Shown piece by piece: positions 1 through 7,052 of a stretch of 7,052 nt of DNA. The position numbers and the translations under genes are program-made. The notes under the pieces were generated by a model that did no database searches, was not told the DNA's origin, and was given only the letters and a program-made list of their open reading frames with translations. Source of the stretch: a virus (Duplodnaviria; Heunggongvirae; Uroviricota; Caudoviricetes); the IMG/VR virus record IMGVR_UViG_2778261417_000006; one strand, 5' to 3'. The stretch's first letter is position 1. Each line of letters starts with the position of its first letter.

Positions 1-130
1 GAATCTGAGGCAGCACCTGGCACGGCTGGGACGGAAGTCGCTGTCGTTCTCAAAATCGGTGGAGCTGCATGACAAAGTCATCGGGCATTATCTGAACATA
101 AAACACTATCAGTAAGTTGGAGTCATTACC
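1..130 (+). mobile_element. IS1 right end, partial and window-truncated (3' end of insB plus terminal inverted repeat)
   Basis: Positions 2-115 translate to [37 protein letters not shown]-stop, the InsB C-terminus as I recall it. The element ends ...CTATCAGTAAGTTGGAGTCATTACC at 130, matching the IS1 terminal repeat. Bases 1-130 are the exact reverse complement of 6923-7052. Confidence 0.93.
2..115 (+). CDS. insB: IS1 transposase InsB, C-terminal fragment (gene continues upstream of the window)
   Basis: Open frame from the window edge to TAA at 113-115; the translation matches the InsB C-terminus from memory. Confidence 0.85.
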
Positions 131-1062: not shown

Positions 1063-1641
1063 ATGAATAAAAATATTGCCGTGACGGGCAAGGGGTACGC
1101 TCGTCCAGTGAAAAAATTCTGCGATATTCGTGATCTCGTCGTTCTGCGCTTTGATAGTGTGAACGTTCGTGTGGTGTATCTGAACGGCGATCCGTGGTTT
1201 GTTGCAAAAGATGTTTGTGCTGCGCTGGAACTAACCAATTCGCGTACGGCGTTGCAGATGCTTGATGATGATGAAAAGGGAGTAAATTTAACTTACACCC
1301 CAGGAGGAAATCAGAATATGAGAATTATCTCTGAGTCAGGTTTCTACAAACTAATAGCCCGCAGCCGCAAAGCAACGACGCCTGGCACATTTGCTCATCG
1401 TTTCAGTAACTGGGTATTCAGAAATGTGATACCAGGTATCAGAAAAACGGGGACTTATGGTATCCCGTGGGGTGCATTACAGGATTTTTCCCGCCGTAAA
1501 GAGCAATATCAAATAAGTGCCAGCGAGAAGGGGAGGGAGCTACAGGCATGTAAGCGCAAAAAGCGTGAGCTGGAGGAAGAAGAAAAAACGCTGATACGTG
1601 AATATCAGCCTGAGTTTTACTTTGGTAACCGCATTCAGTGA
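1063..1641 (+). CDS. Bro-N domain protein (phage antirepressor-like) with charged C-terminal tail
   Basis: 192 aa. Residues about 35-140 (VRVVYLNGDPWFVAKDVCAALELTNSRTALQMLDDDEKGV...TPGGNQNMRIISESGFYKLIARSRKATTPGTFAHRFSNWVFRNVIPGIRKTGTY) match the Bro-N consensus closely. The C-terminus is K/R/E-rich and looks coiled-coil-like. Confidence 0.85.
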   Translation: MNKNIAVTGKGYARPVKKFCDIRDLVVLRFDSVNVRVVYLNGDPWFVAKDVCAALELTNSRTALQMLDDDEKGVNLTYTPGGNQNMRIISESGFYKLIARSRKATTPGTFAHRFSNWVFRNVIPGIRKTGTYGIPWGALQDFSRRKEQYQISASEKGRELQACKRKKRELEEEEKTLIREYQPEFYFGNRIQ

Positions 1642-1650
1642 CAAAACAAA

Positions 1651-1671
1651 GGCGACCGCAAAAGGGTCGCC
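1651..1671 (-). terminator. Hairpin with T-run on the minus strand; candidate terminator for the leftward unit, convergent with the Bro-N gene
   Basis: GGCGACC (1651-1657), loop GCAAAAG, GGTCGCC (1665-1671). The + strand A-rich tract just upstream (1641-1650) reads as a U-run on the minus strand. Confidence 0.5.
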
Positions 1672-1737
1672 AGTGGGAACAAGGGAAAACAAAAGCATCA
1701 CCAACAATGCCACATTTGCGGCTGGTGGGCAATGTGA

Positions 1738-1917
1738 TCAGTCAGATTTGGTTCGTTCCAAGGTTTGCAACGAGAGCTTTTTCCTGTGCTCTTTAAGGAA
1801 TTTCTCAAGAGCAAACGAACAAGGTGCGAATCTTTCTGATTCATGTTCATGCGCTATATTTTTGCGTCGTCTCTTACGAGTTGGTGATGGTGTTTTGGTT
1901 GATTCTGTGTCGCTCAT
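1738..1917 (-). CDS. Hypothetical small basic protein, 59 aa (absent from the supplied ORF track)
   Basis: Hand translation of the minus strand gives MSDTESTKTPSPTRKRRRKNIAHEHESERFAPCSFALEKFLKEHRKKLSLQTLERTKSD-stop. It sits 57 bp downstream of the 101-aa minus-strand gene, has an AGGA about 8 nt upstream, and the minus-oriented hairpin lies about 70 bp beyond its stop. Confidence 0.4.
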   Translation of the reverse strand: MSDTESTKTPSPTRKRRRKNIAHEHESERFAPCSFALEKFLKEHRKKLSLQTLERTKSD

Positions 1918-1974
1918 GGTGCTGTCCTGTAAAGCAATGCGCCTGCGTTCCTCAAACTATGGCGCTGATATTGG

Positions 1975-2280
1975 CTATTCATGCTCTTTGACCTTGCGTC
2001 GCTGGAGTTCTTCACGCGCGACGGTGACGAGTTGCCCGATCTCCTCGGCTGCTTTGATGCCGATTTGTTCGACCTTAGCCAGGGCATCCAGTGACGACAC
2101 AAGGGGATTTTCTCCGCTGCCTTCTGCTTGGCGGCGGGCTATTTCTCCGCGCATGGCGGTTACGATAAATCCGGCATTGCTTTCACCGTCCAGCTTAACG
2201 GATTCCATCCCTTGCATAACATCTAGTGGGACTCTGACAGTTGTCAGTTGTGATTTTGCGTTTTTGTTAGCCGTTGCCAT
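1975..2280 (-). CDS. Hypothetical 101-aa protein; candidate DNA-binding regulator of the element (possibly ribbon-helix-helix-like)
   Basis: AGGAG SD 8 nt upstream of the ATG. It is transcribed divergently from the rightward operon across a palindromic operator region. The N-terminal segment TTVRVPLDVMQGMESVKL is compatible with a beta-strand plus helix RHH fold, but the family is not recognised with certainty. Confidence 0.5.
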   Translation of the reverse strand: MATANKNAKSQLTTVRVPLDVMQGMESVKLDGESNAGFIVTAMRGEIARRQAEGSGENPLVSSLDALAKVEQIGIKAAEEIGQLVTVAREELQRRKVKEHE

Positions 2281-2301
2281 TTCTGAAACTCCTAATCATC
2301 G

Positions 2302-2379
2302 GTGTGTTTCAGTATACACAAAAAAAGAAATACAAAAAGCCTTGACGTGTGTTTCATGCGCTCATAACATGAAACACAC
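2302..2379. promoter_or_regulatory. Divergent promoter/operator region
   Basis: Perfect inverted repeat GTGTGTTTCATG (2347-2358) / CATGAAACACAC (2368-2379) with a 9-bp spacer. A third half-site GTGTGTTTCA sits at 2302-2311. Candidate + promoter: -35 TTGACG (2342-2347), 17 bp, -10 TAACAT (2365-2370). Candidate minus promoter: -10 TATACT (complement of 2311-2316). Confidence 0.6.
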
Positions 2380-2470
2380 CGAAAGGATTGTTGAAATACA
2401 AAGAGCAACGCCCCGCAGTGCTGGGAACACATACGGGGCGTCTAACCAACAACGTAAACTAGGAGCCGTT

Positions 2471-2668
2471 ATGGTTGCTGTAAATCATATACCACACCTT
2501 GTACACACACAAACGGCCTTTGTGTGGCGTTTTCTGGCACTGAGTGCCGGAGAATCTCAAATCATCCACGTAACCGCCTGGACGGAACGCGAAGCGCGTA
2601 GCCGTTGCCCGTCCGGTTGTGTTGCTGTATTCGCTGCAAAAATCCGCCAGGGAGTGAGTCATGCTTAA
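2471..2668 (+). CDS. Hypothetical protein, 65 aa; likely first gene of the rightward operon
   Basis: AGGAG SD 5 nt upstream of ATG 2471. Its stop overlaps the start of the next ORF by 8 nt. It is the 3' end of the long 1598..2668 stop-free frame in the ORF track. Confidence 0.45.
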   Translation: MVAVNHIPHLVHTQTAFVWRFLALSAGESQIIHVTAWTEREARSRCPSGCVAVFAAKIRQGVSHA

Positions 2669-3276: not shown

Positions 3277-3576
3277 ATGGAAATGAAAAATTCTGGCTTT
3301 ATTGCCAGCGGCCCCGCTCGACCTGAATTTATGAACGGCGATATTTACCGCGATAAATACGGCGGCACGGTAACGATTAAAGGCGTGGCAGAACGGCGCA
3401 TCACTTACCGCCGTGAGGGGTATAGCTATGACTGCGTGATGCCTGTTTATCAGTTCCGGCGTGATTTTTCCCTGGTATATGCCGCACCCCGCAGTAAGCC
3501 CATCAGCAGGGAAAAAGCGTGGGGAAATATCCAGAAAATGAAAACCATGATTAACGGATTCAGAGGTAAAAAATGA
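3277..3576 (+). CDS. Hypothetical protein, 99 aa; immediately upstream of and overlapping the primase-like gene
   Basis: GAGGA SD; ATGA start/stop overlap with the 584-aa ORF. Confidence 0.55.
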   Translation: MEMKNSGFIASGPARPEFMNGDIYRDKYGGTVTIKGVAERRITYRREGYSYDCVMPVYQFRRDFSLVYAAPRSKPISREKAWGNIQKMKTMINGFRGKK

Positions 3577-5327
3577 AACTGGCACCGAACGTAAAACAGC
3601 AGTCACGCGGCATAAAACACAAAGGAACAGAAGTAATTATTTTTGCGGGTAGTGATGCCTGGGCACACGCGAAACAATGGCAGGAACATGATGCGCGTAT
3701 GGCCGGAGATAATGAGCCTCCTGTGTGGCTTGGGGAGCAGCAGCTATCCGAACTGGATAATCTGCAAATTGTGCCGGAAGGCCGAAAATCAGCACGCATA
3801 TACAGGGCCGGATATCTTGCGCCTGTAATGATAAAGGCGATTGGTCAGAAGCTGGCGGCAGCAGGCGTACAGGATGCAAATTTTTATCCTGAGGGTATGC
3901 ACGGCCAGGAGGTGCAGAACTGGCGCGAATATCTGGCCCGTGAACGCCAGAATCTTTCTGATGGTCTGGTCATTGAGCTTCCGGTAAAGCAAAAGGCGCA
4001 ACTTTCGCAGATGGCGGACAGTGAGCGCGCGCAGTTGCTTGCCGATCGCTTTGATGGCGTTTGCGTACATCCTGAAAGTGAAATCGTTCACGTATGGCGC
4101 GGCGGGGTATGGTGTCCGGTCAGCACAATGGAACTTAGCCGCGAAATGGTGGCGATCTATTCAGAGCACAGGGCCACTTTCAGCAAGCGCGTAATCAATA
4201 ACGCCGTGGAAGCGTTAAAAGTTATTGCCGAACCAATGGGCGAGCCGTCTGGCGATTTGCTGCCGTTCGCCAATGGTGCGCTTGACCTGAAAACGGGGGA
4301 ATTTTCCCCGCACACGCCGGAGAACTGGATCACCACGCACAACGGCATTGAGTACACGCCACCAGCACCAGGGGAGAACATCCGCGATAACGCGCCAAAC
4401 TTTCATAAATGGCTTGAGCACGCAGCCGGAAAAGACCCGCGCAAGATGATGCGTATATGTGCCGCGCTGTACATGATTATGGCGAACCGGTACGACTGGC
4501 AGATGTTTATTGAGGCCACCGGAGACGGCGGGAGCGGTAAAAGTACATTCACACACATAGCCAGCCTTCTGGCAGGGAAACAGAACACGGTAAGCGCTGA
4601 AATGACATCGCTTGATGATGCTGGTGGACGTGCGCAGGTTGTCGGGAGTCGTCTTATCGTCCTGGCTGACCAGCCGAAATATACAGGCGAAGGAACGGGC
4701 ATCAAGAAAATCACAGGCGGCGACCCCGTGGAAATTAACCCGAAATATGAAAAGCGTTTCACGGCGGTAATCAGGGCGGTGGTGCTGGCGACCAACAACA
4801 ACCCGATGATATTCACCGAACGGGCCGGAGGTGTGGCACGTCGTCGCGTGATTTTCCGTTTCGACAATATCGTCAGTGAGGCCGAAAAAGACAGGGAGCT
4901 ACCGGAAAAGATTGCGGCTGAAATCCCCGTTATTATCCGCCGATTGCTGGCGAACTTTACCGACCCTGAGAAGGCACGGGCTTTACTACTGGAACAGCGT
5001 GACGGTGATGAAGCACTGGCAATAAAGCAACAGACGGATCCGGTTATTGAGTTTTGCCAGTTCCTGAATTTTCTGGAGGAAGCGCGCGGCCTGATGATGG
5101 GTGGCGGTGGTGATTCAGTGAAGTACACGACCAGGAACAGCCTTTACCGCGTCTATCTGGCGTTTATGGCATACGCGGGCAGGAGCAAACCGCTAAACGT
5201 GGCTGAGTTCAGCAAGGCCATGAAGCCAGCGGCGAAAGTTTACGGGCATGAATATATTACGCGAAAAGTTAAGGGAGTAACGCAGACCAACGCAATTACA
5301 ACAGACGATTGCGACGCGTTTTTATAA
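3573..5327 (+). CDS. Replication protein: P4-family primase C-terminal domain / D5-like SF3 helicase
   Basis: 584 aa. Walker A GDGGSGKST is encoded at 4521-4547. The block LIVLADQP...KKITGGDPVEINPKYEKRFTAVIRAVVLATNNNPMIFTERAGGVARRRVIFRF resembles the phage/plasmid primase P4-family C-terminal signature. GAGG SD 6 nt upstream. Confidence 0.82.
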   Translation: MKLAPNVKQQSRGIKHKGTEVIIFAGSDAWAHAKQWQEHDARMAGDNEPPVWLGEQQLSELDNLQIVPEGRKSARIYRAGYLAPVMIKAIGQKLAAAGVQDANFYPEGMHGQEVQNWREYLARERQNLSDGLVIELPVKQKAQLSQMADSERAQLLADRFDGVCVHPESEIVHVWRGGVWCPVSTMELSREMVAIYSEHRATFSKRVINNAVEALKVIAEPMGEPSGDLLPFANGALDLKTGEFSPHTPENWITTHNGIEYTPPAPGENIRDNAPNFHKWLEHAAGKDPRKMMRICAALYMIMANRYDWQMFIEATGDGGSGKSTFTHIASLLAGKQNTVSAEMTSLDDAGGRAQVVGSRLIVLADQPKYTGEGTGIKKITGGDPVEINPKYEKRFTAVIRAVVLATNNNPMIFTERAGGVARRRVIFRFDNIVSEAEKDRELPEKIAAEIPVIIRRLLANFTDPEKARALLLEQRDGDEALAIKQQTDPVIEFCQFLNFLEEARGLMMGGGGDSVKYTTRNSLYRVYLAFMAYAGRSKPLNVAEFSKAMKPAAKVYGHEYITRKVKGVTQTNAITTDDCDAFL

Positions 5328-6564: not shown

Positions 6565-6927
6565 ATGGTTGATTTATATTCGCCTACACAGCTTGTGCAG
6601 GTGGCTAATGCTGAAGATGTGCAAAAAAAATTAAATGCGTTGTTTACCAGTTTGTTTTTCACTCGCTCGGTAATGTTTGAATCGAGAGACATTATTCTTG
6701 ATACGATCGACGATCCAAATATCCCGATCGCGGCGTTTTGCTCTCCTATGGTGGGCAGTAAAGTTTCACGAGATGAGGGATACGAATCAAAAACAATTCG
6801 TCCAGGTTATATGAAGCCGAAAAGCAGCATTGATCCAAATAAGTTAGCTGTGCGCCCTGCTGGTGTGTCACCTGAGCAATACAATGCTTTTGGGGCGCGT
6901 AATATTAAAGTTAAACAGGCGAGGTAA
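6565..6927 (+). pseudogene. Lambda gpE-like major capsid protein, N-terminal about 120 codons only; truncated by IS1
   Basis: The translation from 6565 (MVDLYSPTQLVQVANAEDVQKKLNALFTSLFFTRS...FCSPMVGSKVSRDEGYESKTIRPGYMKPK...) resembles the lambda E N-terminus as I recall it (LFLRLFFRES...YVSPIVSGEVIRSRGG...TPGYVKPK). AAGAGG SD 6 nt upstream. The stop TAA (6925-6927) is supplied by the IS1 terminal sequence GGTAATGA. An alternative start at 6559 (MSMVDLY...) has no SD spacing. Confidence 0.65.
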
Positions 6928-7052
6928 TGACTCCAACTTACTGATAGTGTTTTATGTTCAGATAATGCCCGATGACTTTGTCATGCAGCTCCACCGATTT
7001 TGAGAACGACAGCGACTTCCGTCCCAGCCGTGCCAGGTGCTGCCTCAGATTC
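6923..7052 (-). mobile_element. IS1 right end, partial and window-truncated, inverted relative to the copy at 1-130
   Basis: Exact reverse complement of 1-130; begins GGTAATGACTCCAACTTACTGATAG. Confidence 0.93.
6938..7051 (-). CDS. insB: IS1 transposase InsB, C-terminal fragment (gene continues beyond the window)
   Basis: Mirror image of 2-115; the stop is the complement of 6938-6940. Confidence 0.85.

What the first reader, a model, noticed from the sequence alone, without database searches (positions are those of the whole stretch)
1975..2280. Unassigned 101-aa regulator candidate divergent from the replication operon
It occupies the position of a master repressor. If it is one, this element combines protein-based repression with an AlpA activator, which would be worth testing because Gram-negative satellites are thought to rely largely on AlpA-type activation or RNA-based immunity.
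Basis: inference. Interest (0 to 1): 0.5.

Follow-up and report, generated by a model that had tools for sequence, protein, structure and literature searches.

The report
Ribbon-helix-helix repressor candidate of a PICI satellite
The 101-aa gene is real and very probably encodes a ribbon-helix-helix DNA-binding repressor that shuts off the replication genes of an E. coli phage satellite. This class of satellites was thought to rely on the AlpA activator, and whether it has a repressor at all was an open question.

Summary
The ORF at 1975-2280 (minus strand) is a real gene under purifying selection. It is not "unassigned": it passes NCBIfam's YlcI/YnfO model, a named family with no known function.

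The window is an IS1-bracketed remnant of an EcCICFT073-type Gram-negative PICI.

- **Operators:** the 190-bp divergent intergenic region carries five copies of TGTGTTTC, phased about 22 bp apart. They bracket the -10 of the rightward icd-like/primase promoter and of an inferred leftward promoter.
- **Covariation:** across 184 related loci, about 9 variants of the DNA-contacting beta-strand each come with their own repeated 8-mer at the same positions.
- **Mosaic pattern:** E. coli elements of other classes match the flanks at 90-100% but diverge in the RHH codons and operators. A Xenorhabdus element of the same class keeps the operators although its synonymous sites are saturated.

This is the signature of a repressor-operator immunity module, comparable to P22 Mnt. 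No half-sites lie elsewhere in the window, so "master" repressor is not shown. No binding has been measured. I found no paper proposing this role.

The parts
1975..2280 (-). ylcI/ynfO-family gene, 101 aa. Residues ~9-52 form a predicted ribbon-helix-helix DNA-binding domain (strand 11-17, helices 19-28 and 35-52). Residues ~59-100 form a conserved helical C-terminal domain.
2289..2293 (-). Shine-Dalgarno AGGAG, 8 nt before the ATG of the 101-aa gene.
   Evidence: Read directly from the sequence.
2303..2334 (.). Left operator OL. Half-sites are H1 TGTGTTTC (2303-2310, +) and H2 GAAATACA (2327-2334, inverted, 1 mismatch). They bracket an inferred leftward -10, TATACT (complement of 2311-2316). 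Proposed role: autoregulation.
   Evidence: Half-site coordinates. A TAnnnT hexamer is conserved at this place in all classes (sequences). The leftward promoter is inferred; the consensus scan did not detect it.
2342..2378 (+). Rightward promoter and right operator OR. Order: -35 TTGACG (2342-2347), H3 TGTGTTTC (2348-2355), -10 TAACAT (2365-2370), H4 GAAACACA (2371-2378, inverted).
   Evidence: Promoter scan, 9/12 with 17-nt spacer. Inverted repeat. Half-sites. The TTGAC plus half-site arrangement is conserved in all classes.
2393..2400 (-). Fifth half-site H5, GAAATACA (1 mismatch), 22 bp after H4.
2409..2448 (+). Conserved leader hairpin followed by invariant TCTAACCA, in the 5' leader of the icd-like gene. 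Lower stem is 2409-2415 / 2434-2440 and upper stem is 2417-2420 / 2428-2432. Function unknown.
   Evidence: Conserved in nearly all loci. 3 of 8 predicted pairs show compensatory changes. No Rfam family matched.
2471..2668 (+). icd-like gene (65 aa), first gene of the rightward operon that runs on to DUF4222 and the primase at 3573-5327. This is the presumed target of repression.
   Evidence: RefSeq annotation of the identical sequence in L001. PHROG hits. Divergent icd-like gene present in 161 of 181 loci.
1738..1917 (-). Conserved 59-aa basic ORF starting 58 nt after the stop of the 101-aa gene. Probable second gene of the leftward operon. Function unknown.
   Evidence: phrog_21027 at 5e-15. 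Homologue annotated in CFT073. Present at the same offset in 55 of 91 distinct contexts.
1651..1671 (-). Intrinsic-terminator-like hairpin GGCGACCCTTTTGCGGTCGCC followed by TTTGTTTTGT. Probable end of the leftward transcript. It has no T-run when read on the + strand.
   Evidence: Terminator scan. Sequence.

Best explanation
The 101-aa protein is a ribbon-helix-helix transcriptional repressor of a Gram-negative phage-inducible chromosomal island (PICI).

Proposed mechanism:
- Dimers insert their N-terminal beta-ribbon (residues ~11-17) into the major groove at TGTGTTTC half-sites. Contact positions are inferred by analogy to Arc as L12, T14 and R16.
- Five half-sites lie about 22 bp apart between 2303 and 2400.
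- One pair brackets the -10 of the rightward promoter and abuts its -35. Occupancy should therefore block RNA polymerase and keep the icd-like / DUF4222 / primase operon silent in the resting island.
- Another pair brackets the -10 of the gene's own leftward promoter, giving autoregulation.
- The conserved C-terminal helical domain probably links dimers bound two helical turns apart (cooperativity), or is a docking surface for an inducer.

The RHH domain and its operators evolve and are exchanged together as an immunity cassette, with about 9 specificities seen.

What is shown in silico: the gene, the fold, the repeat architecture, the covariation and the synteny. What is inferred: binding, the direction of regulation, the leftward promoter, and how AlpA overcomes repression. 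My guess for the last point is transcription from the alpA promoter, or from the helper's antiterminated late operon in the embedded configuration, reading through antisense across the repressor gene into the operon.
For: **Fold.**
- AF2 gives strand / H19-28 / H35-52 at pLDDT 87.
- Some homologues are named 'Arc-like DNA binding domain-containing protein' by UniRef.

**Operators.**
- Five copies of the 8-mer are phased at 22, 44, 65, 88 and 110 nt from the start codon. 0 of 1000 shuffles reach that count.
- The exact 9-mers occur only in this region of the window.
- They overlap the only sigma-70-like promoter found.

**Covariation.**
- Each beta-strand class has its own repeated 8-mer at the same positions: QLTTVRV with TGTGTTTC, QMTTIRV with TGTATATC, QSLTARI with TGTAAGAC, KQISIRI with TGTGATTC, QQLNARF with GGTATTCA, and the KN(I/V)R classes with GTGTGTA.
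- The promoter backbone (TTGAC, TATAnT, A-tract) stays the same across classes.

**Double dissociation.**
- E. coli elements of other classes are 90-100% identical in the flanks and 57-65% identical across 2141-2340.
- A Xenorhabdus element of the same class is 35-70% identical in the flanks but 92% identical at 2301-2340, although its synonymous sites are saturated (pS 0.72).

**Not iterons.** The same operators occur with different primase types.

**Synteny.** The order int-alpA-(variable zone)-this gene on the opposite strand-~190 bp-icd-like...primase holds in 184 loci and in the prototype EcCICFT073.
Against: - No binding or expression data exist.
- Sequence-level links to Arc/Mnt are not significant: hhalign probability 1-8%, no Pfam Arc hit, and the Foldseek Arc hit has E=6.8.
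- The protein's N-terminal codons and the operators are adjacent. Co-inheritance alone therefore produces some correlation. The argument rests on concerted change of 3-5 repeats and on the double dissociation, not on independent events.
- The leftward promoter has a poor -35 and was not detected by the scan.
- In EcCICFT073, AlpA alone induces the island (PMC6092414), so repression is either bypassable or weak. That island's copy lacks the C-terminal domain.
- RHH proteins can also activate transcription.
Confidence: 0.72

Rival explanations
1. It is the RHH antitoxin of a two-gene toxin-antitoxin or addiction-type module. The downstream 59-aa basic ORF (1738-1917) would be its partner. The repeats would serve only to autoregulate that operon.
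For: Many of the closest structural matches are RHH antitoxins: Rv0298, MazE4/6/9, VapB12, ParD, TacA and HicB. There is a weak Pfam hit to PSK_trans_fac (E=0.022). A small gene follows at a fixed 58-nt distance in 55 of 91 contexts, and the antitoxin-like layout is N-terminal DNA binding plus a C-terminal partner-binding region.
Against: The 59-aa ORF is absent from about 40% of contexts in which the 101-aa gene is intact. It matches no toxin family. Half of the sites sit on the promoter of the opposite, replication operon. The position between alpA and the replication genes is what is conserved.
Confidence: 0.08
2. It binds the repeats but is not a repressor. It could be an activator or architectural factor of the rightward operon, or a partition or replication accessory protein of the ParG, omega or TraM type acting on phased repeats.
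Against: The sites abut the -35 and cover the -10 and +1 of the rightward promoter, which is the geometry of occlusion. No ParA-like partner is encoded. The PICI origin is reported downstream of pri (PMC10111431, PMC6092414). The operators do not track primase type.
Confidence: 0.12
3. It has no role in island regulation. It would be a prophage-derived accessory protein, as its short relatives YlcI/YnfO sit next to cos and the terminase genes of lambdoid prophages, and the repeats would belong to the promoter region for other reasons.
For: The family is named after prophage genes of unknown function. The helper prophage in EC93 carries its own ylcI, divergent from nohD. A 2026 survey lists YlcI/YnfO merely as a 'prophage-associated protein' (PMC13612085).
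Against: This does not explain the concerted change of repeats with the beta-strand, the mosaic boundaries, or the fixed position opposite the replication operon in 184 loci.
Confidence: 0.05

Closest known systems
Mnt (and Arc) repressors of the immI region of Salmonella phage P22
   Same: A small RHH protein with an R-x-P beta-strand motif in the same register (Arc R13-W-P, Mnt R10-M-P, here R16-V-P). Like Mnt, it has an extra C-terminal helical domain. The gene is divergent from the operon it controls, and the operator overlaps that operon's promoter with an inferred autoregulatory promoter on the other side.
   Different: No significant sequence similarity (hhalign probability 1-8%; no Pfam Arc hit). 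Mnt binds one 17-21-bp operator as a tetramer, whereas here five half-sites lie about 22 bp apart. The target operon is replication (icd-like, primase) rather than an antirepressor. The host is a satellite, not a phage.
Stl / Rpr master repressors of SaPIs and Gram-positive PICIs
   Same: The same position and logic: a repressor gene divergent from the replication operon of a phage satellite that keeps the island quiescent (description in PMC6092414).
   Different: Stl/Rpr are helix-turn-helix proteins inactivated by binding helper-phage proteins. This protein is RHH, and its inducer is unknown. The Gram-negative islands also need the AlpA activator, and no half-sites were found at alpA or int.
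YlcI (DLP12) and YnfO (Qin) of E. coli K-12 prophages
   Same: The same NCBIfam family (NF041551). The short versions share phrog_949 and the N-terminal domain.
   Different: The K-12 proteins are about 64-77 aa, lack the conserved C-terminal domain, and lie next to cos and terminase genes rather than opposite a replication operon. Their function is unknown, so membership gives no mechanism.
P4 CI RNA / P1 C4 RNA immunity upstream of icd-type genes
   Same: Control of an early operon that starts with an icd-like gene in an enterobacterial satellite. A conserved structured leader is present here too.
   Different: No match to Rfam C4 or IsrK, even at E<=10 on the 420-nt region. The repressor proposed here is a protein.

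Membership tests
NCBIfam NF041551 YlcI/YnfO family | Score above the curated cutoff of the YlcI_YnfO_N model | tested here: met
   63.3 bits against a cutoff of 30, residues 9-50 covering model positions 1-42 of 42. RefSeq gives the identical protein this name.
Ribbon-helix-helix (MetJ/Arc) superfamily | N-terminal beta-strand followed by two helices, about 45 residues | tested here: met
Ribbon-helix-helix (MetJ/Arc) superfamily | Obligate dimer forming a two-stranded antiparallel ribbon that contacts the major groove | not testable with these tools
   Only single-chain prediction was available. Indirect support comes from the strand residues covarying with the repeated DNA motif.
Arc/Mnt family (Pfam PF03869) | Significant sequence match to Arc/Mnt | tested here: not met
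   No Pfam Arc hit at E<=1. hhalign probability is 8% against Arc and 1% against Mnt, although the R-x-P register is the same (the Mnt sequence was verified against 1mnt). The Foldseek Arc hit has E=6.8.
Mnt-type architecture | C-terminal helical domain that oligomerises RHH dimers | tested here: inconclusive
   AF2 predicts one long helix, 59-100, at pLDDT 74-93. The region is the most conserved part of the protein. There is also a weak helix-hairpin-helix-like match to Hef 1x2i at E=0.0056. The oligomeric state was not computed.
Satellite master repressor (Stl/Rpr type) | Divergent from, and with operators on, the promoter of the replication operon | tested here: met
   Gene order and operator positions.
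Satellite master repressor (Stl/Rpr type) | Controls the whole island and is lifted by a helper-phage protein | not testable with these tools
   No half-sites lie near alpA or int. The published data concern only AlpA (PMC6092414).
Type II toxin-antitoxin antitoxin | Obligate adjacent toxin gene | tested here: not met
   The downstream 59-aa ORF is present in only 55 of 91 distinct contexts. It matches no Pfam family and only a PHROG of unknown function.
Gram-negative PICI (EcCICFT073 type), for the element as a whole | int, alpA, primase, lambda-type capsid and decoration genes, unidirectional, about 11 kb | tested here: met
   The same layout, including a YlcI/YnfO gene, is found in EcCICFT073 itself.
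C4 / IsrK RNA immunity (Rfam RF01695, RF01394) | Covariance-model match | tested here: not met
   No match at E<=1 on the whole window or at E<=10 on 2281-2700.

The most novel reading that the evidence does not exclude
The YlcI/YnfO-family RHH protein would be the missing global repressor of enterobacterial PICIs.
- It would define at least nine heteroimmune specificity groups through a swappable strand-plus-operator cassette.
- Unlike SaPI Stl, it would be overcome not by an anti-repressor but by transcription that AlpA switches on. In helper-embedded copies, the helper's Q-antiterminated late transcript would do the same.
- That transcription would run antisense through the repressor gene and into the replication operon.
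Probability: 0.2. Interest if true: 0.8.

Novelty: new member of a known kind. Interest (0 to 1): 0.6.

Why it matters
[quoted passage not shown] Later surveys treat this gene as an unnamed or accessory 'prophage-associated' protein (PMC10111431, PMC13612085).

If the RHH protein represses the replication operon, these islands have two tiers of control: a resident repressor and the AlpA activator. The specificity classes would predict immunity groups among co-resident islands. The uncharacterised YlcI/YnfO family would also gain a function.

The prediction is cheap to test because the operator, the promoter and the specificity residues are all named here.

Tried and rejected
- **Rfam on the whole window and on 2281-2700:** no C4/IsrK or other credible family. 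P4/P1-type RNA immunity is therefore not supported here.
- **Sequence search of the PDB** with the protein and with a 31-sequence profile: no RHH hit, only a weak HhH-like match of the C-terminal half to Hef.
- **hhalign against Arc and Mnt:** same register but not significant.
- **Foldseek against the PDB with the full model:** nothing significant; Arc ranked 3rd at E=6.8.
- **tblastn against 50,697 deposited phage genomes:** no match, so this is a satellite or prophage-remnant gene rather than a gene of sequenced phages.
- **Iteron or origin reading of the repeats:** rejected, because the same repeats occur with different primase types and the PICI origin is reported downstream of pri.
- **The 356-aa ORF at 1598-2668 (+):** rejected as the antisense shadow of the real genes.
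- **Literature:** searches for YlcI/YnfO, RHH plus PICI, and a Gram-negative PICI repressor found no functional study. Subscription journals are not covered by the library.

Full report
**What the window is.**

The window is a fragment of a Gram-negative phage-inducible chromosomal island (PICI) of the EcCICFT073 type.
- Both ends (1-130 and 6922-7052) are IS1.
- Between them lie:
  - a truncated tyrosine integrase (193-747);
  - AlpA (749-1006);
  - a Bro-N protein (1063-1641);
  - the 101-aa ORF on the opposite strand (1975-2280);
  - an icd-like gene (2471-2668) and small ORFs;
  - DUF4222;
  - a P4-family primase (3573-5327);
  - SSB;
  - the start of a lambda-E-type capsid gene.
- An intact, 100% identical copy in E. 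coli EC93 is inserted in the portal gene of a lambdoid prophage. This is the helper-embedded configuration described in PMC10111431.

- It has an AGGAG 8 nt before its ATG.
- It has 216 homologues.
- It is under strong purifying selection, with dN/dS 0.05-0.24 against six relatives.
- The palindrome is real.

Two corrections apply.
- The gene is not unassigned. It passes NCBIfam's YlcI/YnfO model at 63.3 bits against a cutoff of 30 and is so named in RefSeq. That family has no known function.
- The first gene of the opposing operon is an icd-like ORF starting at 2471, so the intergenic region is 190 bp.

**Fold.**

- AlphaFold2 on a 31-sequence alignment gives an extended N-terminal segment, helices 19-28 and 35-54, and a long helix 59-100 (pLDDT 81).
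- The N-terminal 56 residues modelled alone reach pLDDT 87.
- Sequence-level comparison with Arc and Mnt gives the same R-x-P register but is not significant, and Pfam's Arc model does not hit.
- I therefore place the protein in the RHH fold class by prediction, not in the Arc/Mnt family.
- The C-terminal half is the most conserved part of the protein. It has only a weak helix-hairpin-helix-like match to Hef.

**Operators.**

The intergenic region holds five copies of the core TGTGTTTC:
- 2303-2310 (+)
- 2327-2334 (-, 1 mismatch)
- 2348-2355 (+)
- 2371-2378 (-)
- 2393-2400 (-, 1 mismatch)

They are spaced 21-24 bp apart.
- No shuffle out of 1000 reaches this count.
- The exact 9-mers occur nowhere else in the window.
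- H3 abuts the -35 (TTGACG, 2342-2347) and H4 abuts the -10 (TAACAT, 2365-2370) of the only sigma-70-like promoter the scan found.
- H1 and H2 bracket a conserved TATACT on the other strand. I take this to be the -10 of the gene's own promoter. This is inference, because its -35 is poor.

**Comparative evidence.**

I collected 184 loci carrying a relative.

Synteny is constant:

| Neighbour | Position relative to the gene | Loci |
|---|---|---|
| icd-like gene | divergent, upstream | 161 of 181 |
| DUF4222 | upstream operon | 149 of 158 |
| primase | upstream operon | 146 of 157 |
| alpA | far side, opposite strand | 106 of 139 |
| int | far side, opposite strand | 108 of 127 |

The prototype EcCICFT073 has the same layout.

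The protein alignment shows a variable beta-strand (residues 11-17) in an otherwise conserved protein. Each strand variant comes with its own 8-mer, repeated 3-5 times at the same positions:

| Beta-strand class | Repeated 8-mer |
|---|---|
| QLTTVRV | TGTGTTTC |
| QMTTIRV | TGTATATC |
| QSLTARI | TGTAAGAC |
| KQISIRI | TGTGATTC |
| QQLNARF | GGTATTCA |
| KN(I/V)R classes | GTGTGTA-type |

The TTGAC, the TATAnT and the A-tract between the half-sites stay the same across classes.

Because the strand codons and the operators are adjacent, linkage alone would give some correlation. Three observations go beyond linkage.
- All copies within a region change together.
- E. coli elements of other classes are 90-100% identical to the window in the C-terminal codons, the downstream ORF and the icd-like gene. 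They are only 57-65% identical across 2141-2340, which is the RHH codons plus the left operator.
- A Xenorhabdus element of the same class is 35-70% identical in the flanks but 92% identical at 2301-2340, although synonymous sites in the gene are saturated (pS 0.72).

The repeats do not follow the primase type, which argues against iterons.

**Mechanism proposed.**

- RHH dimers occupy the phased half-sites.
- The right pair occludes the icd-like/primase promoter, and the left pair autoregulates.
- The C-terminal domain links dimers bound two helical turns apart, or receives an inducing signal.
- The closest analogue in architecture and logic is P22 Mnt. The closest in biological role is the Stl/Rpr repressor of Gram-positive islands.

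How repression is lifted is unknown.
- AlpA overproduction alone induces EcCICFT073 (PMC6092414).
- Bro-N genes are present in only 38 of 143 loci, so a Bro-N anti-repressor cannot be the general answer.
- The only intrinsic terminator between bro and the repressor gene points leftward.
- AlpA-driven transcription could therefore read antisense through the repressor gene and into the operon. This is speculation.

**Limits.**

- Nothing here measures binding.
- 'Master' is not justified, since no sites lie at alpA or int.
- The EcCICFT073 copy is a 59-aa in-frame deletion without the C-terminal domain. This may explain why the gene was not noticed in the only experimentally studied island of this type.

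**Novelty.**

- RHH repressor-operator modules are a well-known kind.
- This family is small: 71 clusters at 50% identity among 1.84 billion proteins. It is confined largely to Enterobacterales.
- In the searchable literature it has no assigned function.
- I rate the finding as a new member of a known kind. It is of real interest to the satellite field and directly testable.

Noticed in passing
window 1-130 and 6922-7052: Both ends of the window are IS1 sequence. They cut off the N-terminal part of the integrase and most of the capsid gene, so this copy of the island is an IS1-bracketed remnant that probably cannot excise.
   Followed up: partly
L001 10346-11179, 11376-21900, 22064-22846: In E. 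coli EC93 the intact, identical island splits the portal gene of a lambdoid prophage. This is a helper-embedded PICI of the kind described in PMC10111431, here at a portal-gene site.
   Followed up: partly
L001 7118-7312: The surrounding helper prophage carries its own short (64 aa, Pfam DUF3950) ylcI gene. It is divergent from nohD/terminase across the cos region. Helper and satellite therefore each encode a member of the same family in different contexts.
   Followed up: no
window 1738-1917 (-): A conserved 59-aa basic ORF lies 58 nt after the stop of the 101-aa gene. It is not annotated in the RefSeq record of the identical DNA, but its homologue is annotated in CFT073. It matches phrog_21027 (unknown function) and is present in 55 of 91 distinct contexts.
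   Followed up: partly
window 2409-2448: A two-tier hairpin followed by an invariant TCTAACCA lies in the leader of the icd-like gene. It is conserved from E. coli to Xenorhabdus with some compensatory changes, and it matches no Rfam family, including C4 and IsrK. Its function is unexplained.
   Followed up: partly
L186 3474-3653 (EcCICFT073): The prototype island's copy is only 59 aa. It is an in-frame deletion joining ...GEIKRRQ to RRKAKEQE, which removes the whole conserved C-terminal domain. Its own repeats (GTGGGCCACACC, twice, 22 bp apart after TTGAC) are kept.
   Followed up: partly
window residues 45-86 of the 101-aa protein (about 2023-2148): The conserved motif SSLDALAKVEQIGIKAAEEIGQL gives a weak helix-hairpin-helix-like match to the Hef HhH2 domain (1x2i, E=0.0056 with the profile). 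AlphaFold2 instead draws one continuous helix here.
   Followed up: no
window 2471-2668: The icd-like protein matches PHROGs labelled 'transcriptional repressor' (phrog_1743, phrog_6196). I did not trace the source of that label, and it should not be read as evidence that this protein is the repressor. The gene is hidden inside a spurious 356-aa ORF (1598-2668) in the mechanical ORF list.
   Followed up: no
L008 965-1258 and 5604-5897: Xenorhabdus vietnamensis carries two copies of the gene 4.6 kb apart on opposite strands. Their operator repeats differ slightly (GTGTGTTTCA against GTGTGTTACA / GTGTATTTCA). This suggests adjacent or tandem islands.
   Followed up: no
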